A stretch of 64,000 nucleotides of DNA, from assembly GCF_029227915.1 (NCBI RefSeq), contig NC_079879.1, positions 12,068,720 through 12,132,719 of the forward strand, read 5' to 3'. The position numbers were made by a program, and so were the translations under genes. This DNA is from Hydractinia symbiolongicarpus (taxonomy: Eukaryota). Below are positions 18,206-49,507 of this stretch, in pieces. The notes beneath the pieces are model-generated. The model saw only the letters and a program-made list of their open reading frames with translations, did no database searches and was not told the DNA's origin. Position 1 is the first letter of the stretch. The number at the start of each line of letters is the position of its first letter.

Positions 18206-18508
18206 CTACTCGATATCGAGTACTTCTCCAGTGTCTTGATCGATGATAAGGCAGCCATCATATACGACACGTCGCTGCGTTTCAGCGAGCTCTGTCGAGT
18301 ATTGCTCAAGATTATTCGGCCACGCAATTTTGGTACAGGGTTCACAATAGGGACCGTCTCTCTGTGCTGAGGCATCATTGTGCTTGGCCTTGCAGATCGC
18401 CTCGAGAAGAGGGGCCTTATTCATCGTTGAGTAACGAGGAATCTTCAGTTCCCTCTCTTCTTTTTCTGGTTCGTCAACCTTCATGTTTGTTTCTATGGTT
18501 GAAGACAA
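18206..18508 (-). CDS. Hypothetical 100-aa protein (element ORF-3 homolog).
   Basis: Conserved inverted copy at 30677-30976 (+), ~85% aa identity. Confidence 0.5.
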   Translation of the reverse strand: MSSTIETNMKVDEPEKEERELKIPRYSTMNKAPLLEAICKAKHNDASAQRDGPYCEPCTKIAWPNNLEQYSTELAETQRRVVYDGCLIIDQDTGEVLDIE

Positions 18509-18671
18509 CCATAGAGAGCCTTGACAAGCCCTTACAATACATTGAAGCTGTCGATCGTATCGTCATCAGAGTTTCTAAAGTAACAAGCGATGTATCTTTC
18601 AACCTCTTTGTATTTACACTCTTCCAGGTAGGTCTGCAGGTAGTAGTTTGAACCTTGCCTGTAGATGCTCG

Positions 18672-19253: not shown

Positions 19254-19304
19254 CTCTATCGTAGAGACTTCCTCAACGAGGTGGTCAGACCTTTCAGAAG
19301 GGAC

Positions 19305-19559
19305 TTTCCCCTACTCAATTACACTTTTGCAATGTCAGCATATTTTCTTGTGAGGGCTACATGATTTGTGATATTGATGACGTCATTAGTTTTGGTGAAT
19401 GCGCGTGCACGTGAGCGGGGGGTGATGTGGTGTGTTGATGACGTCACAGTTTTTTGAGGGGGTGTTGAGGGAGCGTTTTTGATGTGGGGTTTGACCGGGT
19501 GAGATTGTCGAAGGAGGGCTAAAGTAATTATGATGACTCCCTAGTACTACTACTACTAC
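19305..19559 (+). repeat. Terminal repeat T1 of the pPolB element. Inner end CCCTACTCAA, two TGATGACGTCA palindromes, outer end GACTCCCTAG(TAC)5.
   Basis: Same ~250-bp sequence occurs inverted at 29122-29345 and direct at 35080-35360. Abuts satellite at ...TACTACTAC|GGTATTCGTCA. Confidence 0.8.
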
Positions 19560-20885
19560 GGTATTCGTCATTTTGGAAATTTTTGTGATTCGGTTGGGGG
19601 TCAGAAAAACTTAGGAAACAGAAATAATTTTTTCGTAAATCTGTAGTGTCAAACGGAACCCGAAGTAACTACGCCATGAGAATATTTCATACCAGATGTC
19701 CATAAATTTAGATCATGTTGAGAACATTAAAGGCCTTTTCAATACTAAGAAGCACAATGCTCTCATTGTGATGGTGTCGGGAAGGCCTGGACATTGTAGA
19801 CTCAGTTTCCTCAGTGCAAACAAACACCTGTTGCAGTTTCCCATCGGAAATTGTGCGTTGTCCATTTGTTAGACAGGGCAGATGTTAAAAAGTACTTTTT
19901 TCCTAAGCATACCCGTGTTCTCAGAGCAGATTTCAGCTTACAATTTTTAACTTGCTTCTGCAGCAGTGCTAAGGATGGTCAAAGATTTCTGCTTCTTTTA
20001 GCGTTGCACTGAATTTCTCCTTTAAAGTTCAAAACCTGCACAATAGGGAGAAGGTTAAAAACAATTTAAGAACATTTTAAAATTTCAAATGGTGTAAGTT
20101 AAGAACGTTTGCTGCAGTATCTTGGCATGTTAAGCGTTGTTGTGACAGTAATTCTCGCAAATGCACATTAGAAGCAAATGAATCAAAACCAAAAGCAATA
20201 ACAACATGCGCAGAATGGACTCTGTACGCAATGTGGAACATGTTACAGATAAAAAAAAATTCAAACTAAGTTTAAGGTATGTATTATCACTACGTTAAAC
20301 TTTATTTTTGAATTTTTTAGATTCGGTAGGGAGTGGGAGAATTTAGTAAAAAGAAATAATTTTTTTGTGAATCTGCGGCTTCGCACGGAATTCGGAGGAA
20401 CTGCTCCATGAGAACATTTGTCACCCAATGCCCATAAATTTAGATCATGTTGAGAACATTAAAGGCCTTTTCAATACTAAGAAGCACAATGCTCTCATTG
20501 TGATCGTGTCGGGAAGGCCTGGACATTGTAGACTCAGTTTCCTCAATCCAGAAAAACGCCCGTTGCAGTTTTCCATTGGAAAGCTTGCATTTAGCATTTG
20601 TTAAACAGGCCAAGTCTTAAAAAGCACGACTTTTCTAAGCATACCCGTGTTCTCAGAACTATCTTGGCATCTTAAGCGTTCTTATGACATTAATTCTTGC
20701 ACATGCGAAGTAGAAGCAAATGAATCAAAACCGTAAGCAATAAAAACACACGTATTATAGTCTCTGTACGCAATGTTTAACATGTTACAGATAAAAAGAT
20801 TCAAACTAGCTCCAGGTCCCTGAGTTTAAGGTATGTTTAATTTAGCAAAAAGAAAGACTTTTTTTGTGAATCTGTGGTGTCACAC
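19560..20885 (+). repeat. Degenerate satellite-derived segment (~75-80% to array consensus) separating T1 from the next element end.
   Basis: Recognisable satellite head/tail blocks (ATGTTGAGAACATTAAAGGCCTTTTCAATACTAAGAAGCAC...). Confidence 0.7.
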
Positions 20886-21100
20886 GGAGTAATAGTAGGG
20901 GTTCATGATGTGTACAGTGACACTTTTCAACGGCCCAACTTCCACTTAAAAATCCCTCCTCAGCTACCCCTCTAAGAGACTATGACGTCACAGATGAATC
21001 ATACCTCAAATGAGTAAAACACTAACCTTTTTCACTCATGCATGTCATCATGCTCAACTTTAGTAGAAAGGGGGAATTCCCTACTCAAATTTTGAATGCT
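20886..21100 (+). repeat. Variant terminal repeat T' (GGAGTAATAGTAGGGG ... CTATGACGTCACAG ... GGGGGAATTCCCTACTCAAATTTTG) immediately upstream of the pPolB start.
   Basis: Abuts satellite at ...GGTGTCACAC|GGAGTAATAG. Shares the CCCTACTCAA inner motif and one TGACGTCA with T. Mirrored at 28755-28968. Confidence 0.6.
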
Positions 21101-21135
21101 AGGTTCGAGTTTGGAATGTACTTATAGCAAAGAGA

Positions 21136-22925
21136 AATGAGTTAGTTCAAGAATGCGATCTGCCAACATTACAGCACTGCATCAGCGCCGGTAGCAGGAC
21201 CTCGCGACCTACTTGCCGCTCGATTAAAGGACGTGCGAGATGCTGTTACTCTTATTATAATACGGTAAAAGAACAAATTTTGAGAGGGACAACGCCTCAG
21301 GATTATGTCAAACAGGAAGCACAGCAAGACTACTACGATACGGAGGAAAAACGAGAAGAATATCAGTGGATTGAAGACCTCAAACACATGTTCCCTAGAG
21401 AGAAGAAGCAGGCCACGGACCTAGAAGGAATCCAAGACATTCAGCATATTTTTGACGATAAGGATATAAAATTGTTATAAGATGGAAATAGAGTTAAAAT
21501 TTAGAGAATCAACAAGAATCTGAACCAACAACTAACGGATGCGATCATGCGAAAAATTGCACCATACGTAGACATGCGAGTAAATGTTGTTTACAGCTTC
21601 AGCTGTGATATTCACAAAGGTGGAGGTGGTGTATCTCCGTATCACAAAAGTAAGACCTCCAGGTCGGTATCAAGCATCGCAGAAATCGAAGTATTCATAG
21701 AAGAATGTGAAATGACGCTTTTTAAGGATAGTGAGTTTTGGAGTAAAGTATATTTACCGCCAGTCAGAAACCGAGACCCCAAGAGCATATTAAGGAAAAA
21801 TCGTCTTCGATCATGTGCAGATCAAGTTTATAAGCAAGCGTGAGACTTTTTTGGGATGCGGCCCTGTTTTAAATTGCCTGCGAAGAAAGAGATGCATCTA
21901 CAACTTACATAAGGAAGATGAAAGAACTGCAAAATTGGTGAGTTTGTCGATGTCTTGCCATAAACTATCGTGTAGAGAGAAAGCAGCGCGAGAAGCATAT
22001 CACACAAAAAGCCCTCAAACTAGCTCGCAAGTACTATGAGAACCCTAACCTGAAGCGTAAAGACGTACGTTCTACGAAGGTTGTAGATTTCCAGGATATA
22101 GCGAAGCTTTTCAGTATCAACATTAGACACAATCAACCTTGGTATGCTGGATGGACACTGCTTCTACATCAAGGATTTAGACGTACTGGCGCAACAGAAA
22201 TGGGAATGTGGGGTATGCATATAATATAATAAGGGAACAGGGATACAACCTCATCACAGCCTGAGAATGTGACGATCTTCCCAAAACCAAGAAGTACACC
22301 GGTAAGTGTCGCCATTCACGATAGACTTAATGGAGATCCAACGTTCATCGAGCACGTGGACCGAAAATTTTGGTTAAACAGTTAGTGGGGCAGTTGGAAA
22401 GGAGGCATACCCTCATCGTGGAAGAAGTCAAGAGAATGTACCCAAAGCCTGACGATTGCAACATGCTTTCCAAAAAGATCTAGGATGCGTGGAACGAGTG
22501 GGTAAACTAGGTTGCTGTAATTGGTTTTAACAATGGCAAGTATGACATCAATATGATCAAGTGGTACTTTGTGGAGAAAATTAGCTATAGCGATAAGATC
22601 AAATTGGCGAAGAAAGACAACGAATGCATGTTCCTCAAAACCTTGACGTTTAAATTTCTCGATATCAAGATTTCCTCGCTCCTGGTATGAGCTATGACAG
22701 ATGGTCTCTGGAATGTAAACTAAAAAAAAGCTCGTGTTTCCGTACGAGTGCTTAACAAACTACGACAAGTTGAGCCAAGTCGGACCTGTCGCGCACAAAA
22801 ACTTCTACAGTAGTTTTAGTGGGAAAAACACGCTATCTCCTGAAGAGTACGAAACATTCCACGCAGAGTCTTACAACCAGCTTCATGTCACCATTCTCAT
22901 GACGGTGCCAGGCAAACAACTGCTT
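21136..22925 (+). pseudogene. pPolB 5' half, arm-1 copy: N-terminal region plus exonuclease domain. Nonsense at codon 3 (ATG AGT TAG), several frameshifts.
   Basis: ORFs 21280-21480, 21547-21843, 21815-22039, 22734-22964 match the arm-2 ORFs. Exo II-like NNGKYDINMIKWYF near 22530-22575. Confidence 0.6.
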
Positions 22926-25789
22926 TTTCTACCTCCTCAGATCCTTGTGCAATGCAGTATATGACTGAATGAGTAGCTACAAATTGTGTTTACGATGTCT
23001 TCCCGAAATAGACAATTCAAGTAGTGAATGTCGACGCTTATCGAGGTTTTCGTCGGCTGTGGCATCGTCGACTATGAAGGGGCTTTCTTCGCCTGCTAGC
23101 AATGAGGACAGGTTTTAAATCTATTGAAAATGTTGGTCCTTGGGGTCTATCAGGAACACGTAGTCGTCGCGCCAGAGCGAGGCCCTTTCGAGATAGGTAC
23201 CGTTCCACCACAAGGTAGAACATAAAAATATGATATTGTGATAGTGGTGTCTGTATTAATTTTCTAGGAGGTTCATAACACGTTGTGTTTTACCACAAGA
23301 CGTCGGGCCTGTGAAAATTGCTGTGCACGGTTCCATCACAATGTCCAACATTTTTTTCTAATAATTCGACCACTTCTTGTCGTGAATTTTGGGGTATATT
23401 GCTGCACATGAAGAACATATTAACACACCACCGTCAGGACCTAGGATTTTTTTCAGGTTAGGCAAAATTTGACAGATTTTTTGGCAAATTAATATCAAGG
23501 CTTGTGGTGTTGTACAAGGTGAAGCGGCCGTTTTGTGTTTTTATTATAAAAGGAGCTAAAATCGTTCCAAAAGTGAGGTTTTTAGTTATTAAAAATTCTT
23601 CCTAGATTAGAAACGAAAGTGTCTTTATAGCCCAATAAATAAAAGTAACCTCCGTAGTTTAACACTGTTATCCTCGCTAAAACATGCGGATGGAAAACTC
23701 CGTTTGGTAAATTAGACTCGAAACAGGGTTAGCGTTGCCATAGTTCCTTTGAATGACATACCACACTGGTATCATCTAAGCATCTTTTTTACGTTTTATG
23801 CATTTAATACGAGTACAAGTAATCGCCAAGTTACAAATTTGGGGAGTTACTTTATTTCAAAATATGCAATAAGTCTAATAGCTAATAATACAACAAAAAA
23901 TTACATTACAAGACAATTTTAGGAATAGATAGTCAACAGCAATGCAACGTAGAATTATTGTTTGGAAAATTACAGCCTGTGTTAACAACCTGCAAATGCA
24001 AAAACAAAAGCATGTGTAAGATAGCAACGTATAATAAACGACTACAAAAAGTATATAGTAGTTACCCCTTTATGAAGTTAATATTTTTTAATATTAAGGT
24101 TACTGGTGTAGTTTCGCACCAATTTCTATTAAGCATTAATTTTATTGTTAAAAAATTTCCACAAAAGTTGAGTACTTTATTAAGCCAGAAAAGAGTTGGA
24201 ATCAAGAAAAATAACATCAAAACATTTAACATGTCTGCATATTATTTACCCTCACATGCCCCTGTCAACTATGTTTAAAAGTACTTCGAAATTTTTAAAA
24301 AAGTTTTAGTAACTAGGTCAATTTTGAAGATTCTCATATAAAAAGCAACATATATATATATATACAAATTCTACTCATATGCATAAGTTAACATGACATT
24401 TTCATTGGTTTGTAGCAGAACGTTCTTTAACATGCAATTCTTGTTTCGATCTGTATCATTTTACGTGAAAATCATTTCTATCAGTACAAGTTATTTTGAT
24501 ATCATACCCATCCATTTGATATATAAATATATATCCATTGTTTACAGTTTTCCAATATTATAAGGATTCATAATGAATCTCCTGTGTTCTTTAATTGATG
24601 GTGGTTTTAATTGTCAGAAGAATATTCAAAATGGCTGACATCAATATATCTTATCCTAAAACAAAATTATACATGTTGTATTACTCAACAAAAAAGAAGG
24701 AATATTACACAACAAGCTTGGACTATTCTTAGATTGGGTATTGTTTCATTCTTTTGTTTTTAACAATTATATCAGAATTGAAAGCAGCATGGGAAAGTTA
24801 AGGATTTTTAAAATGGGCAGTGGGATGTAGTATATATAATCTACTGTTTAAAAGTTCCAATTCCAAGTCACAATCCTCAGGGACACTCACAATCGAAACG
24901 CAAATTTGACGTTGGGACAAGGTGGAATCCTTTGCCTTTAGGCATATGTCATGCTGTAAACATTGATTTCTTAGAGAAGAAGGTATTTTGAACTTGTCGT
25001 CTACCTGCTTAACACGAGCACATATCCGAGTGCGTATGATTTCAGAGACTGACAACATTCAAATATTACCTATCTGTAGATTCCCAGGGAAAAGATATCT
25101 ACAGACTTATTTACATTTTTGCGTTTATGAAAGAGCTGTGCCATAGTTATTTTACAAGAATTATTTTTTTTCCACAGACACAAAGATACACAGTTGCATA
25201 AACGACTACACGAAGCCTGTGACCTTAAGACAATAAACAAAAAAACTAAAAAAATTCCAACCAATACACATGCAACTTAGTAATACTCTATGCCAAACAA
25301 TACATACACCTCCAAACATTTTTTGACTGCCATGACAGTGTTTACACAAATTGCCTCGGTTATCTCGTTTAGCATTGGGCTTTAATAAACAAACAATCGA
25401 TGTCAAGTTAAAAATTTTTGTTTTGATAAAAAAGAGATTTAAATCACACGTTTTATAAGAACATCTGGTGTTTCACCACGTTTAAGACTAGTTCTTGAAA
25501 CAAAAGTGTCTTAAATCCAGTAGCAGTAAAAACTAAAATATATGAAGTATAACTTACTTTAAAGCAATGAATTTATTGTCTCTTGCAGAGGCAGGGTGAA
25601 GGTTTGGTTTGGGACAACAACATGGCACACGTGATAAAAAAACTTTCCATTTCCAATCCTTTCAGTATCTGAAAGGGTTTCCAAATTCAAAACGTCTTCA
25701 TTAAAGTTATACAATTGCTTTGAAATTCTAGCCATTTGAACTTGACCTAGCTAAGCCATGTTGAAAAAGAAGCATCCACTTGTCGTCCG

Positions 25790-26194: not shown

Positions 26195-28717
26195 GGGACG
26201 AGTAGGCTCTCAACTCGTGGTACCTACAAAATACGATCGCGGGGCCACCGACCATCCCCGTTTGGAACAACTCGTAGGCCTCATTCTTTATACATCTTTT
26301 ACATGTTTTCTGCACTTCTTTGCATTCCTTGCATTTGCTGTTGTAGCAGTCTTTTTTACACTTGTGCTTGCATGGTTCTCCTGGAGCGTATAGCTGCAAC
26401 TTTGGATTCAGTCGTAGAGACTTGTTCAGGACGTGGCGCATCGACACACTTGGAATGCTTACTGCGTCCTTCAAAATGTCTATTTATTCATCGTAATACT
26501 ACTGCCTCGTCTTGTCTGCGGCTTCAATGAATGGCTCCACGTCGACTAGATTTTACACGCGACCAATCCATCATGGTGACGCAGCCTCGCTTGTAAGACT
26601 CTGCGCGGAATGTTTCGTACTCTTCAGGAGATAGCGTGTTTTTCCCACTAAGACTACTGTAGAAGTTTTCGTGCGCGACAGGTCCAACTTGGCTCAACTT
26701 GTCGTAGTTTGTTAAGCACTCGTACGGAAACACGAGCTTTTTGAGTTTACATTCCAGAGACTTGCATCATCTGTCATAGCTCATAACAGGAGCGAGAAAA
26801 TTCTTGATATCGAGAAATTTAAACCTCAAGGTTATCGCTATAGTCTTTCGCAATTTTCTCCACAAAGTACCACTTGATCATATTGATGTCATACTTGCCA
26901 TTGTTAAAAACAATTACAGCAACCTAGTTTACCCACTCGTTCCACGCATCCTAGATCTTTTTGGAAAGCATGTTGCAATCGTCAGGCTTTGGGTACATTC
27001 TCTTCACTTCTTCCACGATGAGGGTATGCCTCCTTTCCAACTGCTCCACGAATTGTTTAACCAAAATTTTCGGTCCTCGTGCTCGATGAACGTTGGATCT
27101 CCATTAAGTCTATCGTGAATGGCGACACTTACCGGTGTACTTCTTGGTTTTGGGAAGATTGTCACATTCTCAGGCTGTGATGAAGTTGTATCCCTGTTCC
27201 CTTATTATATTTTCCTTCTTCAACAGGGCAATCCATGCCAGTACCACCCGTAGTACTCGTAAACGGTCTTCGTGATAGGCTCATAACCGTCAACTTTCCA
27301 CACCTTTCCTTTGTCAACACGTATAACACGTTCACCACAATGACCACATAAAGCATGTTGAATATGTCTCCAAGTCTTCTTGGACATGTATTTAATCCAT
27401 TGAGATGCAGCGTAGCTGAAGTTTTCACCGTAAAAGACCTCCTCCGACTTGCTCGGCACACTTTCTCCCTTTTGCAAATGATTGTTGTCTTGACCCCTTC
27501 GCATTCATTTTTCTTATGCCGCGATAGGTGGTCAGCTTTTTTAAAAACTTGAATGCATACCCCACATTCCCATTTCTGTTGCGCCAGTACGTCTAAATCC
27601 TTGATGTAGAAGCAATGTCCACCCAGCATACCAAGGTTGATTGTGTCTAAACCTTTTTTGTATTGATTCTGGCCGTAGATGAGTCTCCATGGTACCTTTT
27701 CAGAGTTTTTCTTGGGCTCAAAGACTCTGATGTTGATACTGAAAAGCTTCGCTATATCCTAGAAATCTATAACCTTCGTAGAACGTACGTCTTTACGCTT
27801 CAGTTTAGGGTTCTCATAGTACTTGCGAGCTAGTTTGAGGGATTTTTGTGTGTATGCTTCTCGCGCTGCTTTCTCTCTACACGATAGTTTATGGCAAGAC
27901 ATCGCCAAACTCACCAATTTTGCAGTTCTTTCATTTTCCTTATGTAAGCTGTAGATGCATCTCTTTCTTAGCAGGCAATGTAGAAGAGGGTCGCATCCCA
28001 AAAGAGGCTTACGCTTGCTTATAAACTGCACATGATCGAAGACGATTTTTCCTTAATATGCTCTTGGGTTCTCGGTGGTTCTAACTGGCGGTAAATATAC
28101 TTTACTCCAAAACTCACCATCCTGAAGACGCATCATTTCACATTCTTCTAAGAGTACTTCGATTTCTGCGATGCTTGATACCGACCTGGAATTCTTACTT
28201 TTGTGATACGGAGTTACACCACCTCCACCTTTGTGAATATCACAGCTGAAGCTGTAAATAACATTTACTCGCATGTCTATGTATGGTGCAATTTTTCGCA
28301 TGATCGCATCCGTTAGTTGTTGGTTCAGATTCTTGTTGATTTTCTAAGTTCTAACTCTATTTCCATCTTATAACAATTTTATATCCTTATCGTCAAAAAT
28401 ATGCTGAATGTCTTGGATTCCTTCTAGGGCCGTGGCCTGCTTCTTCTATCTAGGGAACATGTGTTTGAGGTCTTCAATCCACTGATATTCGTCTTGTATG
28501 TCCTCCGTATCGTAGTAGTCTTGCTGTGCTTCCTGTTCGACATAATCCTGAAGCGTTGTCCCTCTTAAAATTTGTTCTTTTACCGTATTATAATAAAGAG
28601 TAACAGCATCTCGCACGTCCTTTAATCGAGCGGCAAGAGGGTCGCGAGTTCCTGCTACCGGCGCTGATGCAGTGCTATTACAGCATTGCATCAGATCGCA
28701 TTCTTGAACCAACTCAT
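26195..28717 (-). pseudogene. pPolB 5' half, arm-2 copy: N-terminus, exonuclease region, C2HC-like zinc finger, up to the pre-motif-A segment EAYELFQTGMVGGPAIVFCRYHE. Frameshifted.
   Basis: ORFs 28446-28712, 28053-28301, 27759-28031, 27162-27629, 26524-26733, 26190-26474. Last 80-100 bp overlap-homologous to 34770-34870. Confidence 0.6.
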
Positions 28718-28754
28718 TTCTCTTTACTATAAGTACATCCCAAACTCGAACCCA

Positions 28755-28968
28755 GCAGTCAAAATTTGAGTAGGGAATTCCCCCTTTCTACTAAAGTTGA
28801 GCATGATGACATGCATGAGTGAAAAAGGTTAGTGTATTACTCATTCGAGGTATGATTCATCTGTGACGTCATAGTCTCTTAGAGAGGTAGCTGGGTAAGG
28901 ATTCTGAAGTGGGAGTTGGGCCGTTGAATAGTGTCACTGTACACATCATGAACCCCTACTATTACTCC
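28755..28968 (-). repeat. Variant terminal repeat T' (arm-2 copy).
   Basis: Mirror of 20886-21100. TTGAGTAGGG at 28766-28775, TGACGTCA at ~28868. Confidence 0.6.
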
Positions 28969-29121
28969 GTGTGACACCACAGATTCACATAAAAGTATTT
29001 CTTTTTGCGAAATTTGCCCGACTCCCAACCGAATCAAAAAATTTTGAAAATGACGATTACCGTAGAAGTGATACATACTTTAAACTCAGAGACCTAGAAT
29101 TAGTTTGAATTTTTTTAACTG

Positions 29122-29345
29122 TAGTAGTAGTAGCACTAGGGAGTCAACATAATTACCTTAGCGCTCCTTCGACAATTTCACCCGGTCAAACCCCACATCA
29201 AAAACGCTCCCTCAACACCCCCTCAAAAATCTGTGACGTCATCAACACACCACATCACCCCCCCCGCTCACGCGCACGCGCATTCACCAAAACTAATGAC
29301 GTCATCGATATGCTGACATTGCAAAAGTGTAATTGAGTAGGGGAA
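29122..29345 (-). repeat. Terminal inverted repeat T2.
   Basis: Reverse complement of T1 (~90% identity). (TAG)4 tip at 29122. TTGAGTAGGG at 29333-29342. Confidence 0.8.
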
Positions 29346-29427
29346 AGTCCCTTCTAAAAGGTCTGACCACATCGTTGAGGAAGTGCCTACGATAGAGATG
29401 AGATAGAGGCAAGAAAGGTGGAAAAAT

Positions 29428-29883
29428 TTGGTTAAAAAGGATCTCCCACTGATCAGGTATGTGCCAGATCAATTCAAGACGCAAGACATGTGCAACAAGG
29501 TTGTTAGAAGGAATCCCTACCTATTCAAGTATGTCCCCGACACGTTAAAGACACGAGACATATGCAGCGAGACTGTTGAGGAGTATCTTAGGATGCTCAG
29601 GCACGTGCCAGATCAATTCAAGACTCAAGACATGTGTAACAGGGCTGTTGAAAAGTATCCCCGCATGTTGAAGTACGTGCCGGACTGGTTCAAGACGCGA
29701 GACATGTGCCTCAGGGTTTCTGAGGATGAGCCTGAACTACTCTCTGCCTATCACCAGAGGAAGGCTGAAAAGGCTAGGATTAAGGAGGAGCTGCTTCCGA
29801 TGGCCTGGCATCCTGACAGGGTCGTGGACTGCTGCTTCTCAGAAGATGAAAAGGCAGACCTTGAACTCTTGTGGAGTAAATAA
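29428..29883 (+). CDS. Repeat protein (YVPDQFKTQDMC ~23-aa repeats, DUF4116-like). Ancestral ATG start at ~29398 carries a nonsense at codon 3 in this copy.
   Basis: Homolog of 18672-19253 (-). Tandem intragenic repeats. Confidence 0.5.
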   Translation: MVKKDLPLIRYVPDQFKTQDMCNKVVRRNPYLFKYVPDTLKTRDICSETVEEYLRMLRHVPDQFKTQDMCNRAVEKYPRMLKYVPDWFKTRDMCLRVSEDEPELLSAYHQRKAEKARIKEELLPMAWHPDRVVDCCFSEDEKADLELLWSK

Positions 29884-30332
29884 ACGATGAAGGAACACTG
29901 CGATGAATGTGAACGCGTGCTCGACGGGTACGACAGGTGCGATTGTGGACGGAGGTTCTTGAGAAGACCTAGGCTGCTCTGCCGGTCCTGCTACTAGGAG
30001 TGCATCACGTACAATGGTGGTAGCTGCTATTGCGCAACGACATAGAAGAGCCTGGTTGAGGTTTTGTCTCCACAATAAAGAGGATGTTGATGAAATTTGG
30101 AGACAAAACTGTTAAGTAACTGTTACACCAACTCATAACCGCTAAACATCAAAGAGGTGAACATTGAAAACCTTATATTGAGCAACCGTATTGCAGCCAA
30201 CAAGGCGAAGGATCAACGCTTTGTCATAGGGTATCAGGACCAAGACGCACCATAGCACCACTACTGCTCAAAAGCCCTGAAAAGATCCACTCGAAGGGTG
30301 TCTCGTGCTTCAGCGAAGGCTCCGCGCTAACT

Positions 30333-30653
30333 ATGTCATTCGATCTGGCCAGCTATCCTGAGCGGCTAAATCAATACGAGAAAATCCTAATCAAGGTGGA
30401 ATACTTGGAAGGGTATCACTTAACCAACGGCGGTGTGAAAAAAGTCAGAACCAACTTCCATAAGAAAAAGATACAACAGAAAAGTTGTGAGTGTAAGGCC
30501 ATCATCAAACTAGCGAGCATCTACAGGCAAGGTTCAAACTACTACCTGCAGACCTACCTGGAAGAGTGTAAATACAAAGAGGTTGAAAGATACAGCGCTT
30601 GTTACTTTAGTAACTCTGATGACGATACGATCGACAGCTTCAATGTATTGTAA
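30333..30653 (+). CDS. Hypothetical 106-aa protein.
   Basis: Conserved with the C-terminal part of arm-1 ORF 18672-19253 (MSFDLASYPE...). Confidence 0.4.
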   Translation: MSFDLASYPERLNQYEKILIKVEYLEGYHLTNGGVKKVRTNFHKKKIQQKSCECKAIIKLASIYRQGSNYYLQTYLEECKYKEVERYSACYFSNSDDDTIDSFNVL

Positions 30654-30676
30654 GGGCTTTTCAAGGCTTTCTATGG

Positions 30677-30976
30677 TTGTCTTCAACCATAGAAACAAAC
30701 ATGAAGGTTGACGAACCGAGAAAAGAAGAGAGAGAACTGAAGATTCCTCGTTACTCAACGATGAATAAGGCCCTTCTTCTCGAGGCGATCCACAAGGCCT
30801 GGCACAAGGATGCCTCAGCACAGACAGACGGTCCCTATTGTGAACCCTGTACCAAAATTGCGTGGCAGAAAAATCTTGAGCAATACTCGAGAGAGCTCGC
30901 TGAAAAGCAGCGACGTGTCGTATATGATGGTTGCCTTATCATCGATCAAGACACTGGAGAAGTACTCGATATCTAG
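30677..30976 (+). CDS. Hypothetical 99-aa protein.
   Basis: Conserved with 18206-18508 (-). Confidence 0.5.
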   Translation: MSSTIETNMKVDEPRKEERELKIPRYSTMNKALLLEAIHKAWHKDASAQTDGPYCEPCTKIAWQKNLEQYSRELAEKQRRVVYDGCLIIDQDTGEVLDI

Positions 30977-31649
30977 TAGGCAGGTGATCTAGTGTGTTGT
31001 TCAACACACTAGGCTCGAGAGATCTATGAAAAGGCAGGCAGATTGAAGTTTTTTCAGTAGTTCATCTTTGGCCTACTCTCGACCCTCCGCAACAAGCTGC
31101 AGACGTTCTCGTTCATTGATCAAGTACACGACCCGCTTGACACGTTGTCTGATATACTCCTTTAGCATCATGTATTTTTGCTTTTCCTACATGATCAGGC
31201 TGAACTCGAAATCGCTGATGACACCGTTCTGCACAGCCCTGCTGATCAGGTCGATGACTGAGTTGAGCTTAGTCTCTGCCAGTAGTCTTATCCCCTCGTG
31301 TTTCTTGGATTTTGCACCCAGTATCTTCCCAGCGTTCCGCAGACCCGCTCGCCCAATTCCCACGGCAATGGTTATACCTGCCACGGCTATGTACAGTGGG
31401 GCACCGAACCCTGAGGCTAGCGCTCCTATTCCGACACCTCAGGTGATAATGCTGATACTCAACAACCCATGATCACAAAAACGCACCCACGTGCTTTTTA
31501 GCGAGCTTGCCACGCTCTTTAATCTCACCCCGCATGTACTGCTCTACTTTCTCGATTTTCTTGAGTTTGTAGACCTGTGAACTGTCCTTCTACGTGTATT
31601 CCGCAGGTGCACTTGGTAAATTAGCGTAAAGCTTCATAACATCAGTCAT

Positions 31650-32048
31650 TTATTGTATCAGTAGGTGCATCGTAATTCCCATGAACGAAACGTTCTTATC
31701 ATGGTGATACTCGTCTGTCAACATAAATTCAAGGCGATCCGTCGAGCCCTTCAGGTGAAGGTAAACAGGGTTGTCAAATCTCCACGTCAACATATCTCTC
31801 CAAGCGCTTAACTCTTTTACTGGAAACAGGGCCAGCATCTTAGATTTCCTACCATCCAGTAGGCATCTTTCCTCATCGAGCTGTGGCCAAACGAGTCTCA
31901 GTCGCTGGTCCACGTCAGTCTTGTACCAGCTGTCATAGTCGCCCTCGGTAAAGTGATTTGCCTTCCGGTCGAAGGTTATCCCCATGAGCTCCTGCAGTGG
32001 TTTGTGAATCATGATGATGTATCCCTGCCGTATATATAGCAAAATCAC
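31650..32048 (-). CDS. Hypothetical 132-aa protein.
   Basis: Partially conserved at 17430-17666 (+). The antisense ORF 17289-17714 is intact only in arm 1, so strand assignment is uncertain. Confidence 0.35.
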   Translation of the reverse strand: MILLYIRQGYIIMIHKPLQELMGITFDRKANHFTEGDYDSWYKTDVDQRLRLVWPQLDEERCLLDGRKSKMLALFPVKELSAWRDMLTWRFDNPVYLHLKGSTDRLEFMLTDEYHHDKNVSFMGITMHLLIQ

Positions 32049-32169
32049 CGTTTGCGTATAGGTTCAACCACGTAGGTCAAATGGACTTCAGAGCTATCCT
32101 GTTTCTTAAAGAAAAGATGAGCATTTACTCGTACAACCCGAAGGCAAAGTACGCACCCAATCACGCGAG

Positions 32170-32661
32170 ATGCAGGACATCGTTATTGACGCGCAGGGGT
32201 CCTCGTTCATGGTGAAATTTCCAGACATCTCTGTCGACTATGAATTCCACTCAGGCACAGCAGTGAAGGAGTGGCAGAGTCACCCTTTCAGTCTCTGGTC
32301 TACTCAGCTTAACTTCGCTACCTACTGCGCAACATTCGCTTGTGGCATTTCCATGCATCATCTGACCGCCTCTTTGCGTCTAGTTCGTGCCGTCTACCGC
32401 TTCCACGTCTACATCCAGATCCGCAAAATTCTATCAGAGCTTGACATCTCTCTACCAGGCTCCGACAGATTTCGACGTCTCAACAACCCCTTCAACAAGC
32501 AGAAGTTCAGGCAACTAGCTCGTAAATTTGGGGTAAGCGACAGCGAGCAGGAGTGGAGGAACGAGGCCCTCTTCAGTAGCTGGCAACTTCATCACACGGA
32601 CTATCCTGGTTCAGGTCCTACCTATCTTGACGAGGACTCGTGGAGTGGCTGGATCATTTAA
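32170..32661 (+). CDS. Hypothetical protein. N-terminus frameshifted in this copy; true start ~32117 MSIYSYNPKAKYAP.
   Basis: Homolog of 16971-17285 (-). Confidence 0.45.
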   Translation: MQDIVIDAQGSSFMVKFPDISVDYEFHSGTAVKEWQSHPFSLWSTQLNFATYCATFACGISMHHLTASLRLVRAVYRFHVYIQIRKILSELDISLPGSDRFRRLNNPFNKQKFRQLARKFGVSDSEQEWRNEALFSSWQLHHTDYPGSGPTYLDEDSWSGWII

Positions 32662-32709
32662 AAATCTCAGGGTCTCACTCATACTGGCATAGAGAGCCTG
32701 TCGCAAAGC

Positions 32710-33249
32710 GTGAGTCAGGCGAACGCGAGATCTGGCATCCTCGGCAACCAAGGCAGTGCAATTGATGCTCAACGCCTGTACCTGACGAACTTTGAGGAGA
32801 TGATAATTAGACATAGCGATACAAGCAAAGAGATCGGCGAGTTCCAAAACGTGCTGAAGTATGCACGGTCCAAGGTCGATTTCTTGGTTGCTCATGGTGT
32901 CTATATGATTCCCAGTGATATGAGCCTTCACATCGGAAATGTTGTGAATTTCATGAACAAAGTTCTCATCAGCAATCAGTATTTCTCTATCAGTGTTAAC
33001 CCGCAGATTAACCCTAGCACATGTAGTAGCACACGCAGTAGCGAGTCGACTAAACATCAAGCACCAATGCAAGAAAAGGGGGTAGCCGACGAGGGTGGAG
33101 TGCGATTGCCGCACCCCCTTCGTAAAGCCCAAAAGCATGATTATCACCTTGCCCGTCAGGACGGGCAAGGTGATGCAGCTCAGCCTGATGACAGCAAAGC
33201 AGCCTTGATGACAGCAGGAGTAGGGCTAATCCTCGCCTCATTTGCCTGA
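32710..33249 (+). CDS. Hypothetical 179-aa protein with a C-terminal hydrophobic helix. Overlaps an antisense 185-aa ORF (32611-33168), and only one of the two is likely real.
   Basis: ORF length and composition only. Confidence 0.3.
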   Translation: MSQANARSGILGNQGSAIDAQRLYLTNFEEMIIRHSDTSKEIGEFQNVLKYARSKVDFLVAHGVYMIPSDMSLHIGNVVNFMNKVLISNQYFSISVNPQINPSTCSSTRSSESTKHQAPMQEKGVADEGGVRLPHPLRKAQKHDYHLARQDGQGDAAQPDDSKAALMTAGVGLILASFA

Positions 33250-33304
33250 AGGGACCTGCGACTTAGTCTAGTGTGTTTTGTCAACATACTAGAGTCTTCG
33301 CGCT

Positions 33305-33541
33305 TCACGATCTACGAGTCTTTCCTCTCCCCCCGACGTACGTCACAACAACAGCAACGACAGCAGCTACCGCGATGTACAAGTGGTTCGCCGCGTATTC
33401 GACCGCTTCTGCCGGTGTGTCGACTTCGTCGTATATCTCTGCAATGTCTCGAACCATGTTTATTAGACGTCGGTAGCGAAAGAAGAAGAGCATGATCAAG
33501 ACGTATGGCAGTAACACGGGGATTAATATGAGTATCTCCAT
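33305..33541 (-). CDS. Small 78-aa protein with an N-terminal TM helix (MEILILIPVLLPYVLIMLFFF).
   Basis: ORF plus hydrophobic N-terminus. Confidence 0.3.
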   Translation of the reverse strand: MEILILIPVLLPYVLIMLFFFRYRRLINMVRDIAEIYDEVDTPAEAVEYAANHLYIAVAAVVAVVVTYVGGRGKTRRS

Positions 33542-33575
33542 TTATTGGAGCCCTCTGCGTAAAGGTATAGCCGCA

Positions 33576-35035
33576 CTACACCTTTTTCGCAGTGTCTAAA
33601 CTCCCTTTTAACGTGCTCATGTACCTAGACCACGTCACAGCATTCTGCATCCTTGACATCCCCTTGCACGAAAATTTTGTGCCCTCTTTTCCTTCGACGA
33701 AATAGCACTTGGCTGTCAGGTCAATCATCCGAGACCCGATGAATTCCGCTTTGAATAACCCTCCCGTTCGACTCGAGTACTTATCGGTGACAAGCCAGTT
33801 TTTCACGTCCTCGTCGTACTTGTCGAACAGTTCAGGGCGAACGACAACTTGCAACTCTTCTTCAGAGATGGCAAAATAGGCACTGTCTGTATCCATGTAG
33901 CAATACTCAAAGTTTCAACGGTCTACGTACTTGTCCAGGAAGTCGTAGTAGAATTCAAGCATGCACAACTTCGCCAGCTGATAGACGGCTATACCACATT
34001 GGTAAGCTCTATCGATGCTGACCCATGCCTACCTTTTCTGATCTGTACGCATCTCCTGTCTCTTCAAGGTCCTCGAGGTATGCGTTTCGCAGGGCTGCAT
34101 CGACCTCCTTTTCGTCTCTGGTAAACGTAATGTTCGCGTGCCTTGCCAGATCTTCGATCATCTTGCCATAGAACGAGTTCCCCTTCAACTTGGCTGTATC
34201 TCCCGCAATACGCTTGTCAGGGTCTTTATCCGCTTGTCGTCGTGCATCCGTAATCTCTGTTGGGAACCATGTAAATGGTTTGCCTCGGGTGTATTTGATT
34301 AACTGGTGAAAGGCAGTCACTCTCAATCCATGTTCAATGTACCATTTCAGTACGGGCGTATACAACAAGATCCTCTCTGCTTTCATCAACCCTAGTAGCT
34401 TACGCGTACCTGGAACACGCTTGAGCCCTGTAGTTGTCAAGTACTCTTGCATGTGCTCGGGGATTTGATCGTGGGGTATCTCCTTGACCACAAATAGCGG
34501 AGCCATCTCGCTGAATTTGTCATACAGTTCCGGAGGTACCTCGATATCGACTTGCGCAAAGCCGAAGAGCGATCCAATTTGAACACCTCGCGTCAGTATA
34601 TCGAGATTGTGCGCCGATGTCGGTGTAGACACCTTGAAAAGCTTTTCCTTCCCACACGGAAAGTCTTCCAGCATGGTACTTGGGTAGAGCATGTTTGCGT
34701 CGTACCCTAGAATGGTTTTGCATTTGTTTTGCTCCTTGTAGATGTGAGATCTGATACCCGTCACGTTGCTCTCGTGGTACCTACAGAAAACAATCGCGGG
34801 GCCACCGACCATCCCCGTCTGCAAGAGCTCGTAGGTCTCATTCTTCGTGCACTCTGTGCATGATCGTGAAGTGTTGTTGTTGTTTTGCTGAAATTTGTTC
34901 CTTCGCCTTGTTGTAATAAAAAGTAACAGTATCCCACACACTCTTCAATCGATTAGTAAGTGGGTCTCGAGTTGCTGCAACTGGCGCTGATACGGTGTCG
35001 TACATTTTGCTTATTGCGTTCTTGAACCAACTCAT
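33576..35035 (-). pseudogene. pPolB of copy E-a. The N-terminal ~55 aa are joined by a frameshift to the polymerase domain. Motif A is GYDANMLYPS, motif B is KLKGNSFYGKM, motif C is YMDTDS, and the KxY motif is LTAKCYF. A frameshift lies near 34012-34040 and an in-frame TGA at ~33915.
   Basis: ORFs 34838-35035, 34009-34941, 33576-33896. Hand translation of 33897-34014 shows the open frame DRAYQCGIAVYQLAKLCMLEFYYDFLDKYVDR followed by TGA, then NFEYCYMDTDS. Confidence 0.75.
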
Positions 35036-35079
35036 CCTGTTTATTATAAGTACGGTTCAACCTCAATCAAAAAAGGTCT

Positions 35080-35360
35080 TGATTTGAGTAGGGGAATACC
35101 CTCTACTCAACTTGGGTATGGTGACTCAGCGGTCGATGCCGTCGTTTCTGTTGATGTCAGCATATTTTCGTGTGAGGGTTACATGACTTGTGATATCGAT
35201 GACGTCATTAGTTTTGGTGGATGCGCATGCGCAGGGGGGGTTGATGACGTCACAGGTTTTTTGGGGGGTGTTTGAGGGAGCGCTTTTGATGTGGGATTTG
35301 ACCGGGTGAAAGTGTCGAAGGAGCGCCAAAGTACTTATGTTGACTCCCTAGTACTACTGT
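35080..35360 (+). repeat. Terminal inverted repeat T3.
   Basis: ~85-90% identical to T1. TTGAGTAGGG at 35084-35093. Two TGATGACGTCA sites. Ends CTAGTACTAC then satellite in minus orientation. Confidence 0.8.
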
Positions 35361-36280
35361 TGTTATAATACATACTGTAAACTCCGTGACCTAGAATTAG
35401 TTTCAGTTTTTTTTATCTGTAACATGTTCAACATTGCCTGCACCTGTTCTTATCGCTTATGGTTTTGAATCATTTGGCTATACTGTACATGTGCGAGAAT
35501 TATTGTCATAAGAACGCTTAACATGCCAAGATACTTCAGGAAACGTTCTAAACTTTCCCGATTTGAAATTTCAAAATGTTCTCAAATTGTTTAAAACTTT
35601 CTTCCTATTTTGCAAATTTTGCATGCACAATGAATGATTTCCGATGGAAATCTGCAACGGGTGCTTGTCTGGACTGAGAAAACGGAGCCTACGATGTCCA
35701 CGTAGTCCCGACACGATCATAATGATAATCAGTGCTTCCTAGTATTGAGAAGGCCTTAAATGTTCTCAACATGATCTAAATTTTTGGACACCTAATGTCA
35801 AATGTTCTCATGGTTTAGTTACTCCAGATTCCATGTCACACCACAGATTCACAAAGAAATAATGTTTTTCTGCTAATTTTTTCCGAATACTGTAGAGATA
35901 ATACATACCTTAAACGCAGGTACCTAGGATTAGTTTGAGTTTTTTTATCTGTAACCCGTTCAACATCGCGTACAGAGTCCATACTGCGCGTGTTTTTGTT
36001 GCTTATGGTTTCGATTAATCTGTTCCCACTGTGAATGTGGGAATATTAACGAACACCTGCAAGCGCGCATTTACTACGATGTACTACACAGCTTTTGCTC
36101 ATTAGAATGCTCAACATGCCAGGATACTTCATCAAATTTTCTTAATTTTCCGATTTGAAATTTCAAAATGTTCTTAAAGTGTTTTTAAGTTTCTCATTAT
36201 TTTGCGGCTTTTGAATTTTAAGCTGTAACCTTCTCTTAGAACACGGGTATGCTTAGAAAAGACGTTCTTTTTAGGACCTG
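35361..36280 (-). repeat. Satellite units in reverse orientation flanking E-a.
   Basis: rc matches the satellite tail/head (…CAGATAAAAAAAACTGAAACTAATTCTAGGTCACGGAGTTTACAGTATGTATTA). Confidence 0.75.
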
Positions 36281-48798: not shown

Positions 48799-49507
48799 TT
48801 AAATTAACTGTAATCTTCTAGGATCTCGGGCAAAAATATTAAGTACATCATCTACCTTTGGAATAACTTCTTGATGAATGTACATTAAGGAAAGACCATT
48901 AAGACGATTTTCTGTCATGGTACTACGGCAATAATCTTTTAATCGTCTTAATGATGAAAAACTTCTTTCACATTCACATGAAGTAATAGGGATAGTAGCA
49001 AGAATGCGAATAGCAACATTTATATTAGTAAATTGAGACAGGTTTATTGACTTTAAAGTTTGAGCAATGGTTTCAGGTCTTGTACCCTGATAATCCAAAG
49101 CAAACTTTTCCCACAGCTCTAACTCAGACTCTAGAGCAAGAGGATTTGACATTTTAGATTTGTAAAAATCTACAAACCTTTTGAATTTGCTCTTCCAATC
49201 TTTGTTGGAGTAAACCATTGAAACTACTTTGGCTGGTACAATGCACAATCCATTATACACTACAAAGTTTTCAAAATCAAACAAGTGTTTCCGAGTTGCT
49301 TTGAACAAACTTTGTAGAAGAGGCCAAAGGAGCTAACCTATATTTTAATACACTTCCATTCTCCAGCAGCTGCGGAAAATTTATTGTAGGTAATTTTGAC
49401 AAATCACCAATGCGGGAGTTAAAAATTTCTCTCATTACATCGACATTTCTACTTAAAAAAGCACTAGTCACCTTGTCAGACATGGTTTTTAAAGCCATGT
49501 TTAACAA
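48799..49507 (-). pseudogene. hAT-superfamily transposase remnant, C-terminal dimerisation region only.
   Basis: CERSFSSLRRLKDYCRSTMTENRLNGLSLMYIHQEV is the classic hAT C-terminal signature. The N-terminal ~350 aa are missing. Confidence 0.6.

What the first reader, a model, noticed from the sequence alone, without database searches (positions are those of the whole stretch)
33576..35035. Copy E-a carries an exonuclease-less pPolB that is additionally interrupted
The N-terminal ~55 aa (MSWFKNAISKMYDTVSAPVAATRDPL...YYNKAKEQI) are joined with a frame change directly to ...CTECTKNETYELLQTGMVGG, just before motif A. Comparison with the arm copies shows ~2.3 kb of exonuclease-domain sequence is deleted. 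Between motif B and motif C there is a frameshift near 34012-34040. The +1 frame stays open (DRAYQCGIAVYQLAKLCMLEFYYDFLDKYVDR) and then hits TGA seven codons before YMDTDS. So E-a is a non-autonomous deletion derivative, like internally deleted DNA transposons, that would depend on a polymerase supplied in trans.
Basis: seen in the sequence. Interest (0 to 1): 0.55.

Follow-up and report, generated by a model that had tools for sequence, protein, structure and literature searches.

The report
Broken polymerase gene in decayed Maverick
This is a dead copy of a virus-like "Maverick/Polinton" mobile element sitting in satellite DNA of an animal (probably hydrozoan) genome; its DNA polymerase gene has lost about 2.3 kb and carries further disabling mutations, which is ordinary decay, and nothing shows that the shortened form ever spread.

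Summary
On the minus strand, the first ~55 codons of a protein-primed family B polymerase (35035-34871) are joined, with a frame change, to the palm region (from 34863). Motifs A, B and C are present. The gene then has a net 2-nt frameshift (34056-34020) and a TGA (33917-33915) where three relatives have Arg CGT. About 2.24 kb is missing versus the palindrome-arm copies and about 2.45 kb versus related loci. The junction (34870-34859, TTCACGATCATG) aligns to both parental sites, which suggests a microhomology-mediated deletion.

The last ~40 codons of the polymerase are also gone. The deleted stretch includes a ~500-aa N-terminal region as well as the exonuclease. E-a is really a 6.2-kb unit (29132-35355) with ~270-bp terminal inverted repeats, inserted in a 743-nt satellite.

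Relatives carry an rve integrase, an A32 ATPase and a capsid-like gene, so the family is Maverick/Polinton.

The claim of a trans-dependent non-autonomous derivative is unproven. No second copy shares the junction. The source genome is absent from every searchable collection. The polymerase is inverted relative to its neighbours compared with relatives, and every gene is broken. In-situ decay is the most likely explanation. Interest is low.

The parts
35084..35355 (-). Right terminal inverted repeat of E-a. The outer end reads ...GTTGACTCCCTAGTACT at 35355. It contains two TGACGTCA palindromes (35200-35207, 35245-35252) and GCGCATGCGC (35223-35232). A hairpin-like inverted repeat TTGAGTAG...CTACTCAA lies at the inner edge (35084-35110).
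   Evidence: Alignment of the three copies of the terminus. Five-way alignment with the arm polymerase copies. BLASTN 35193-35358 vs 29311-29129 gives 82.6% identity in inverted orientation.
35356..35364 (.). ACTGTTGTT, a candidate target-site duplication. It corresponds to the satellite 9-mer ACCGTAGAG. The satellite resumes at 35365.
   Evidence: Satellite units compared at the same phase. The other end carries CTACTACGGT / CTACTACAGT.
34871..35035 (-). Retained 5' end of the polymerase gene (about 55 codons: MSWFKNAISK...YYNKAKEQI...).
   Evidence: Homologous to the first 45-55 residues of the full-length polymerases of L001 and L002 and of the arm copies.
34859..34870 (-). Deletion junction TTCACGATCATG. 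These 12 nt align with both the upstream parental site (arm copy TTCAGGATTATG) and the downstream parental site (L001 TTCAAGCATCATG; L002 and L003 TTCAGAATTCATG).
   Evidence: Pairwise alignments and printed sequences.
34033..34863 (-). Polymerase palm region in a second frame: SCTECTKNE..., motif A DANMLYP (34704-34678), motif B KLKGNSFYG (34191-34162).
   Evidence: Pfam PF03175, E = 1.4e-6. 75-81% amino-acid identity to relatives.
34020..34056 (-). Frameshift: a net 2-nt deficit relative to L001, L002 and L003.
   Evidence: DNA alignments. Frame change between tblastn segments.
33583..34019 (-). Polymerase palm/thumb region in a third frame. It contains the premature TGA (33917-33915, in place of Arg CGT) and motif C YMDTDS (33899-33882). 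Homology ends at 33583, about 40 codons short of the normal C-terminus.
33305..33541 (-). 78-aa hydrophobic ORF just downstream of the truncated polymerase. It weakly resembles a small ORF that lies 2.3 kb downstream of the polymerase in L001.
   Evidence: tblastx 33505-33374 vs L001 9413-9544, a weak match.
30252..33250 (+). Decayed accessory-gene block, colinear with Maverick contigs L003 and L006. The conserved ~400-aa 'Y' protein gene (32102-33250) is split by a frameshift. In E-a the block is on the opposite strand to the polymerase; in L003 and L005 it is on the same strand.
   Evidence: tblastx. Y family search: 62 hits, best 73% identity. Gene maps of relatives.
29428..29883 (+). DUF4116-repeat ORF next to the left terminus. 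A more complete 193-aa copy lies in the left palindrome arm at 18672-19253.
   Evidence: Pfam PF13475, E = 1.8e-15 and 1.1e-26.
29132..29400 (+). Left terminal inverted repeat of E-a. The outer end reads AGCACTAGGGAGTCAAC... from 29132. It is preceded by (ACT)n and a TSD-like stretch (29118-29131) and by a 58-nt satellite duplication (29060-29117) that the left-arm copy lacks.
26214..28960 (-). Right-arm copy ('E-b'). It has its own diverged terminus, then a polymerase start at 28717 followed by the N-terminal region and exonuclease. It is truncated at 26214 and has at least 4 frame changes. This is the reference that shows what E-a lacks.
20880..23357 (+). Left-arm copy of E-b. The polymerase 5' part (21137-22876) is joined at 22876 to a fragment of an A32-type packaging ATPase gene (22875-23357).

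Best explanation
E-a is a fossil of a Maverick/Polinton-type element. These are virus-like mobile elements that encode a protein-primed family B polymerase, a retroviral-type integrase and capsid genes.

Its history, with each step marked as shown or inferred:
1. The element integrated once into a 743-nt satellite. Shown: both terminal repeats are present and the satellite phases adjoin. Inferred: a target-site duplication of about 6-9 bp.
2. It then decayed in place (inferred).
3. The polymerase gene lost about 2.24-2.45 kb, covering the N-terminal region and the whole 3'-5' exonuclease. Shown: the deletion. Inferred: it occurred between two short imperfect direct repeats (TTCAnGAT[CT]ATG), as in microhomology-mediated end joining or replication slippage.
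4. Later lesions, all shown: a 2-nt frameshift, an Arg-to-TGA change, and loss of the last ~40 codons.
5. Integrase, packaging ATPase and capsid genes are absent, and the remaining accessory genes are frameshifted (shown).
6. The polymerase segment is inverted relative to those accessory genes compared with relatives (shown).

The element makes no polymerase and has no demonstrable activity. Nothing here shows that it was ever copied in its shortened form.
For: - Lesions are mapped to the base.
- Family assignment rests on several results: Pfam PF03175 above its cut-off; motifs A, B and C; and hundreds of homologues. Related contigs carry rve integrase and Pox_A32, and L005 is an intact-looking relative with A32, a capsid-like protein, rve, VLTF3, Bro-N and a 1345-aa polymerase.
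- Termini are shared by three copies and end at the same base next to satellite. The flank phases are 595 and 596-601 of the 743-nt unit, and the 9-mer is present on both sides.
- The two terminal repeats are only 82.6% identical, which points to an old insertion.
- The same locus shows other in-place rearrangements: a 16-kb palindrome with an asymmetric centre, an arm polymerase joined to an A32 fragment in one arm only, and a 58-nt satellite duplication in one arm only.
- No other palm-domain copy or junction copy exists in the window.
Against: - Retention of both termini and of a duplication-like 9-mer is exactly what a mobilisable deletion derivative would also show.
- The surviving polymerase coding sequence is less damaged than the divergence of the terminal repeats predicts. 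It has one stop in 424 codons, and simulation gives P(<=1 stop) of about 0.05 at 9% neutral change, rising to 0.25 at 5%.
- It breaks only 6 of 129 family-invariant residues, no more than live-looking divergent relatives do.
- The order of events (deletion before or after integration) cannot be read from a single copy.
Confidence: 0.72

Rival explanations
1. The deletion arose before integration. E-a belongs to a non-autonomous lineage that keeps the terminal repeats and is replicated and integrated by polymerase and integrase supplied in trans by full-length elements.
For: - Both ~270-bp terminal repeats are kept and end cleanly against satellite.
- The satellite flanks are contiguous and carry a duplicated 9-mer, so E-a (or its precursor) integrated as one unit.
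- The coding sequence is only mildly decayed.
- Full-length relatives with intact enzymes exist in related genomes.
Against: - There is no second copy of the junction in the window, in the scanned collections or among the 120 best protein hits.
- The element is not colinear with relatives; the polymerase is inverted relative to the accessory block.
- The neighbouring copies show that large deletions and rearrangements happen in place at this locus.
- The duplicate of E-a's left half in the other palindrome arm is part of a segmental inverted duplication that includes satellite and a second element. It is not a transposition.
Confidence: 0.17
2. E-a is a defective genome built from two polymerase-proximal ends in opposite orientation. 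One end lacks the polymerase entirely and the other has the exonuclease-less polymerase. It would have arisen by template switching or illegitimate recombination during protein-primed replication and then been integrated as a unit.
For: - In L003, the closest relative, the block geneB-X-Y lies directly downstream of the polymerase on the same strand.
- In E-a the same block reads inward from the left terminus, while the truncated polymerase reads inward from the right terminus.
- The flanks suggest a single integration.
Against: - Gene order differs among the relatives themselves (L003, L005 and L006), so the canonical order for this lineage is unknown.
- An in-place inversion plus deletions explains the same structure.
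- Only a single copy is available.
Confidence: 0.07
3. The structure is not biological. It is a mis-assembly or collapse in a repeat-rich region that has joined pieces of different copies.
For: The region is satellite-rich and contains a 16-kb palindrome. Such regions are prone to assembly errors.
Against: - The junction lies inside unique coding sequence and has microhomology to both parental sites.
- The N-terminal piece is only 72.5% identical to the arm copies, so it was not borrowed from them.
- The frameshift and the stop are point lesions, not joins.
Confidence: 0.03
4. A shortened, exonuclease-less polymerase is still expressed and used, either as a domesticated gene or through splicing or recoding.
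For: A 310-aa ORF with motifs A and B survives, and conserved residues are mostly kept.
Against: - Motif C is in another frame and lies behind a TGA that replaces a conserved Arg codon.
- No intron could remove both lesions without also removing the conserved segment SIDRAYQCGIAVYQLAKL...KYVDR.
- The C-terminal ~40 residues are missing.
- There is no ATG-initiated frame joining the N-terminus to the palm region.
Confidence: 0.01

Closest known systems
Maverick/Polinton elements (polintoviruses; Kapitonov & Jurka 2006 and Pritham et al. 2007, from my own knowledge; features summarised in PMC4028283, PMC5499653 and PMC3014272)
   Same: - A protein-primed family B polymerase lies close to one terminus, and the element has terminal inverted repeats of a few hundred bp.
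- There is a short target-site-duplication-like repeat.
- Close relatives of the polymerase and of the Y gene sit beside rve integrase, A32 ATPase and a capsid-like gene.
- GC content (44-48%) is higher than in the neighbouring AT-rich host DNA at 36-58 kb (30-37%).
   Different: E-a is 6.2 kb rather than 15-25 kb. It lacks integrase, ATPase, protease and capsid genes. Its polymerase is missing about 64% of its length and is inverted relative to the accessory block. Every gene is broken.
Internally deleted non-autonomous DNA transposons (for example Ds from Ac, and deleted P and hobo elements; gap-repair origin described in PMC3014272)
   Same: The termini are kept and the enzyme gene has an internal deletion with microhomology at the junction.
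   Different: Those families are defined by many copies that share a junction and are demonstrably mobilised. Here there is one copy and an extra inversion. Polinton replication is thought to be self-synthesising rather than cut-and-paste, so gap repair is not the obvious source. PMC3014272 found no non-autonomous Polintons in the lizard genome.
Protein-primed family B polymerases of phi29, adenovirus and linear plasmids (Pfam PF03175)
   Same: Motifs A (DxxxLYP), B (KxxxNSxYG) and C (YxDTDS) are present. Relatives have an N-terminal exonuclease with Exo I-III (DFEA, FNSGKYD, YNLADV).
   Different: The family here has an extra ~500-aa N-terminal region with a C2H2-like finger and a CxWHGC motif. 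No solved structure is detectable by sequence. The E-a copy lacks the exonuclease entirely.
Defective genomes of linear protein-primed replicons that carry rearranged or duplicated ends (adenovirus defective particles, deletion derivatives of linear plasmids; from my own knowledge)
   Same: Both termini are kept, the internal genes are lost, and the parts near the ends are in inverted orientation.
   Different: E-a is not a symmetric duplication. The resemblance is a lead only and was not tested.

Membership tests
Maverick/Polinton | [quoted passage not shown] | tested here: met
   Present only as a remnant. Pfam PF03175 scores 27.9 bits against a cut-off of 25.8. Motifs A, B and C are found. 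The best homologue has E = 5e-225.
Maverick/Polinton | Encodes a retroviral-type (rve) integrase | tested here: not met
   tblastx of the whole window against L001-L004 found no integrase match. For L005 and L006 only 16.8-35.4 kb, which includes all of E-a, was compared, and again no integrase match appeared. The relatives L002 and L005 do have one.
Maverick/Polinton | A32/FtsK-type packaging ATPase and jelly-roll capsid genes | tested here: not met
   None lies inside 29132-35355. An A32 fragment lies at 22875-23357 beside the left-arm copy. Relatives have A32 and a weak Capsid_N protein. Divergent capsid genes could escape these searches.
Maverick/Polinton | Terminal inverted repeats of roughly 100-1000 bp | tested here: met
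   About 270 bp, 82.6% identical over the BLAST core, ending at the same base in three copies.
Maverick/Polinton | Target-site duplication of 5-6 bp | tested here: inconclusive
   A satellite 9-mer (ACCGTAGAG) appears on both sides in diverged form, and the flank phases are adjacent (595 | 596-601). The exact length is blurred by (ACT)n and by a 58-nt secondary duplication in the right arm.
Maverick/Polinton | Size of about 15-40 kb | tested here: not met
   29132-35355 is 6.2 kb.
Family B polymerase, protein-primed group | 3'-5' exonuclease motifs Exo I-III | tested here: not met
   Absent from E-a. Present in the arm copies and in relatives (DFEA, FNSGKYD, YNLADV).
Family B polymerase, protein-primed group | TPR1/TPR2 insertions seen in structures | tested here: inconclusive
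   The AlphaFold model of relative P0112 had a mean pLDDT of 43 and was unusable. Sequence searches of the PDB found nothing significant.
Non-autonomous deletion derivative of a DNA transposon | Both termini kept and the enzyme gene disabled | tested here: met
Non-autonomous deletion derivative of a DNA transposon | Colinear with the autonomous parent apart from the deletion | tested here: not met
   The Y block is on the same strand as the polymerase in L003 and L005 but on the opposite strand in E-a. Caveat: no parent from the same genome is available, and gene order varies among relatives.
Non-autonomous deletion derivative of a DNA transposon | Several dispersed copies share the same deletion junction | not testable with these tools
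   None in the window. The 25-mer has no hit in metagenome or viral contigs. The source genome is not in the protein database: best identities are 78% for the polymerase, 73% for Y and 74% for a host O-GlcNAcase exon.

The most novel reading that the evidence does not exclude
E-a is one member of a still unrecognised class of short, trans-mobilised Maverick derivatives. These would be assembled from two polymerase-proximal ends during protein-primed replication, then integrated by a helper's integrase. That would give direct sequence evidence for how Mavericks replicate and generate defective genomes.
Probability: 0.07. Interest if true: 0.55.

Novelty: new member of a known kind. Interest (0 to 1): 0.17.

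Why it matters
It matters little by itself. Internally deleted, frameshifted copies are the normal fate of mobile elements, and a dead polymerase gene inside satellite DNA is expected.

- Its main use is for annotation. It shows that the polymerase-like ORFs here are relics of a hydrozoan-type Maverick lineage and not host genes.
- It gives base-level landmarks (termini, junction) that can be used to screen the full genome.
- If the same junction turned up at other loci, it would document a non-autonomous Maverick family. Few of these are described, and it would bear on whether Mavericks can be mobilised in trans.

Tried and rejected
- **Exact-protein look-ups.** The 310-aa ORF and the Hydractinia proteins P0006 and P0009 are not on record.
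- **Apparent full coverage by short proteins.** Several 545-750-aa hits covered 99-100% of my N-terminus-plus-palm query, which hinted at a conserved exonuclease-less architecture. Reading the sequences showed this was a local-alignment artefact. They are ORF fragments starting inside the exonuclease, and none of the 120 hits has the MSWF.../SAPVA N-terminus.
- **Solved structures.** Sequence searches with one sequence and with an 18-sequence profile found nothing significant.
- **Structure prediction.** The model of P0112 had pLDDT 43, so no fold search was run.
- **Invariant residues.** I counted broken family-invariant residues as a measure of decay. E-a breaks 6 of 129, the same range as divergent relatives, so the measure is uninformative.
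- **Stop-codon simulation.** The result is only marginal: P = 0.05-0.25 depending on the assumed age.
- **Intron hypothesis.** A 15-nt GT...AG stretch at the frameshift would not change the frame, so a mini-intron was rejected (reading).
- **TIR hairpin motif.** No match in the related loci.
- **A 50-nt target duplication.** I first read the flanks this way. The left-arm copy shows that the extra 58 nt is a secondary duplication in the right arm.
- **Source species.** A search with a host O-GlcNAcase exon gave a best identity of 74%, so the species remains unidentified.
- **Literature.** No paper in the library mentions both Hydractinia and Polinton.

Full report
**Setting**

The window falls into four parts.
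- 1 to about 15.2 kb is a satellite with a 743-nt unit. Fragments of it recur at 15.2-16.9, 19.55-20.84 and 35.37-36.22 kb.
- A large palindrome follows: 16868-22876 pairs with 32500-26591 at 89-98% identity.
- The region under study comes next.
- AT-rich DNA follows, containing a hAT transposase fragment and an exon of an O-GlcNAcase gene.

GC content is 44-48% across 26-36 kb and 30-37% in the host-like DNA at 36-58 kb.

**Checking the observation**

Six-frame translation of the minus strand of 33560-35060, with peptide coordinates, shows the following.
- Frame 1 encodes MSWFKNAISKMYDTVSAPVAATRDPLTNRLKSVWDTVTFYYNKAKEQI from 35035. It runs out of homology to a stop at 34838.
- Frame 2 encodes SCTECTKNETYELLQTGMVGG from 34863. 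It contains motif A (YDANMLYPS, 34704-34678) and motif B (KLKGNSFYGK, 34191-34162) and stops at 34011-34009.
- Frame 3 encodes SIDRAYQCGIAVYQLAKLCMLEFYYDFLDKYVDR, then TGA (33917-33915), then NFEYC, then YMDTDS (33899-33882). It stops at 33578-33576.

The middle ORF passes the Pfam gathering threshold for DNA_pol_B_2 (PF03175: 27.9 bits against 25.8). A reconstructed query finds 590 homologues, the best with E = 5e-225. The feature is real.

**The deletion**

- Within the window, the N-terminal piece matches the palindrome-arm copies at 28717-28541 and at 21137 onward, with 72.5% nucleotide identity.
- The stretch just after the junction (34845-34771) matches 26288-26214 at 89%.
- Between these anchors E-a has 45 nt and the right arm has about 2.24 kb.
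- In two related contigs (L001 and L002) the same anchors are about 2.45 kb apart.
- The translated L002 gene shows what is lost: about 500 residues of N-terminal region (a C2H2-like finger and a YEYNGCKWHGC motif), then Exo I (DFEA), Exo II (FNSGKYD) and Exo III (YNLADV).
- So E-a keeps about 55 + 428 of roughly 1,300 codons.
- The 12 nt at the junction, TTCACGATCATG (34870-34859), align with the upstream parental site in the arm copy (TTCAGGATTATG). They also align with the downstream parental site in L001 (TTCAAGCATCATG) and in L002 and L003 (TTCAGAATTCATG).
- I infer a deletion between short imperfect direct repeats. This step is an inference.

**The other lesions**

DNA alignment with L001, L002 and L003 shows three further defects.
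- E-a has a net deficit of 2 nt between 34056 and 34020.
- The TGA stands where all three relatives have CGT (Arg).
- Homology ends at 33583, where the relatives continue for about 40 more codons (...NTGFRVH...YEQNKLGLSA.YDKR...GIHTRPL).

TGA is therefore a mutation, not a sense codon. A mini-intron cannot rescue the frame. The only GT...AG candidate at the frameshift is 15 nt long, and any intron removing both lesions would also remove a conserved coding segment.

**Is the exonuclease encoded elsewhere?**

Searches with relatives find exonuclease-coding sequence only in the two arm copies (21137-22898 and 28717-26214). The right-arm copy is on the same strand as E-a's polymerase, 4.9 kb downstream. 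It is not a spliced exon, for these reasons:
- it has its own start codon and its own diverged terminus;
- it is separated from E-a by satellite and by E-a's other terminal repeat;
- it changes frame at least four times.

**What the element is**

The closest proteins are predicted proteins of the hydrozoan Hydractinia symbiolongicarpus and ORFs on unnamed ENA contigs, at no more than 78% identity. The related contigs have these genes:
- L002 has the polymerase followed by an rve integrase, Bro-N and a Pox_A32 ATPase.
- L001 and L003 have A32.
- L005 was found through a second E-a gene and looks intact. It has A32, a 425-aa protein with a weak NCLDV-capsid match, rve, VLTF3, Bro-N and a 1345-aa polymerase of the same broad family (25% identity, E = 3e-36).

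This is the Maverick/Polinton gene set.

**True limits of E-a**

A ~270-bp segment next to the polymerase start (35084-35355) recurs in inverted orientation at 29132-29400, and again in the left arm at 19280-19555. All three copies end at the same base against satellite. E-a is therefore a 6.2-kb unit, 29132-35355, bounded by terminal inverted repeats that are 82.6% identical.

The flanks support a single integration.
- The right flank resumes the satellite at phase 595.
- The left end, as preserved in the left-arm copy, resumes at phase 596-601.
- A diverged copy of the satellite 9-mer ACCGTAGAG is present on both sides.
- Together these fit one integration with a short target duplication.
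- The right arm has a secondary 58-nt satellite duplication at 29060-29117.

**Content of E-a**

- From the left end, on the plus strand: a DUF4116-repeat ORF, then a block colinear with L003 and L006. The block includes a frameshifted gene for a conserved ~400-aa protein that I call Y (62 database relatives, no Pfam domain).
- Then, on the minus strand: a small hydrophobic ORF and the broken polymerase.
- No integrase, ATPase or capsid gene is present.
- In L003 (the closest relative, with 76% polymerase identity) and in L005, Y is on the same strand as the polymerase. In E-a it is on the opposite strand.
- E-a is therefore not simply a parent minus one segment. The caveat is that gene order differs among L003, L005 and L006 themselves, and no parent from the same genome is available.

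**Interpretation**

The sequence shows that E-a cannot make a polymerase and keeps both ends. It does not show that the shortened form was ever copied.
- The only duplicate of any part of E-a is the left arm. That duplicate belongs to a segmental inverted duplication that also contains satellite and a second element, so it is not a transposition.
- The same locus shows other in-place rearrangements. The left-arm polymerase is joined at 22876 to an A32 fragment, whereas the right arm continues to 26214.
- The junction 25-mer has no match in the metagenome or viral collections.
- The source genome is not in the protein database. Even a host O-GlcNAcase exon finds at most 74% identity. The decisive copy-number test could not be run.

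Two observations lean slightly the other way.
- The coding sequence has only one stop in 424 codons. Simulation gives P(<=1) of about 0.05 if it had decayed by 9%, as half the terminal-repeat divergence would suggest, and 0.25 at 5%.
- It breaks only 6 of 129 invariant residues.

These are weak, because terminal repeats need not have been identical at insertion.

**Verdict**

- In-place decay of a single old Maverick insertion: about 0.72.
- A propagated non-autonomous derivative: about 0.17.
- A replication-generated two-end chimera: about 0.07.
- Assembly error or a still-functional gene: the remainder.

The finding is a correct and careful reading of an ordinary pseudogene. It is a new, decayed member of a known kind of element, and interest is low.

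Noticed in passing
window 1-15240; fragments at 15241-16865, 19552-20839 and 35365-36220: A satellite with a 743-nt unit (with 237-nt sub-spacing in some units) fills the first quarter of the window. It is the insertion target of both Maverick copies, whose termini lie within about 170 nt of each other in one unit.
   Followed up: partly
window 16868-22876 and 26591-32500: A 16-kb palindrome with arms 89-98% identical and an asymmetric 3.7-kb AT-rich centre. Each arm holds the left 3.4 kb of E-a, a piece of satellite and the 5' part of a second Maverick copy (E-b). It looks like a segmental inverted duplication.
   Followed up: partly
window 22875-23357: In the left arm only, the E-b polymerase is cut inside its exonuclease region and joined to a fragment of an A32-type packaging ATPase gene. 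This is equivalent to a deletion of about 8.6 kb relative to L002. The right arm instead continues the polymerase to 26214.
   Followed up: partly
window 29060-29117: A 58-nt duplication of satellite sequence sits next to E-a's left end. It is bounded by CTAC[AG]GT repeats and is absent from the left-arm copy of the same end (19555).
   Followed up: yes
window 35084-35110, 35200-35207, 35223-35232, 35245-35252: The terminal repeat carries two TGACGTCA palindromes (like cAMP-response elements), a GCGCATGCGC palindrome and a hairpin-like TTGAGTAG...CTACTCAA about 50-75 nt upstream of the polymerase ATG. The hairpin is conserved in the diverged E-b copies. These may be promoter or origin signals.
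   Followed up: no
L004 (NCBI GCA_020423245.1, JAIOUH010000323.1) 1-4717: This contig is a head-to-tail array of a polymerase fragment about 789 nt long, equivalent to E-a 34854-34063 and read through as long ORFs. The unit boundary (microhomology GGAA) lies only about 10 nt from E-a's deletion junction. This may be coincidence or a fragile site.
   Followed up: partly
window 32102-33250 (and 16872-17300); proteins P0121-P0182: A conserved protein family of about 400 aa with no Pfam domain. It is found next to capsid-like and A32 genes in Maverick contigs L003, L005 and L006. Its function is unknown.
   Followed up: partly
window 29428-29883 and 18672-19253: A DUF4116-repeat protein gene sits just inside the left terminal repeat. 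The left-arm copy is a 193-aa ORF, longer than E-a's own 151-aa copy.
   Followed up: no
L001 333-2277 and 10834-12091: A related contig has inverted repeats of 1.3-1.9 kb (76-93% identical) that carry a Bro-N gene. They bracket the polymerase and small ORFs, while A32 and a Fic-domain gene lie outside. Structures in this family are variable.
   Followed up: no
window 48799-49308; 57134-57350: A hAT transposase C-terminal dimerisation fragment (Pfam E = 7.6e-9) and an exon of an O-GlcNAcase (GH84) host gene. The closest database relative of the exon is only 74% identical, so the source species is not in the protein collection.
   Followed up: partly
window 33579-34863: The surviving polymerase coding sequence is less decayed than the 17% divergence between the two terminal repeats would predict. 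It has 1 stop in 424 codons, and simulation gives P of about 0.05 at 9% change.
   Followed up: partly
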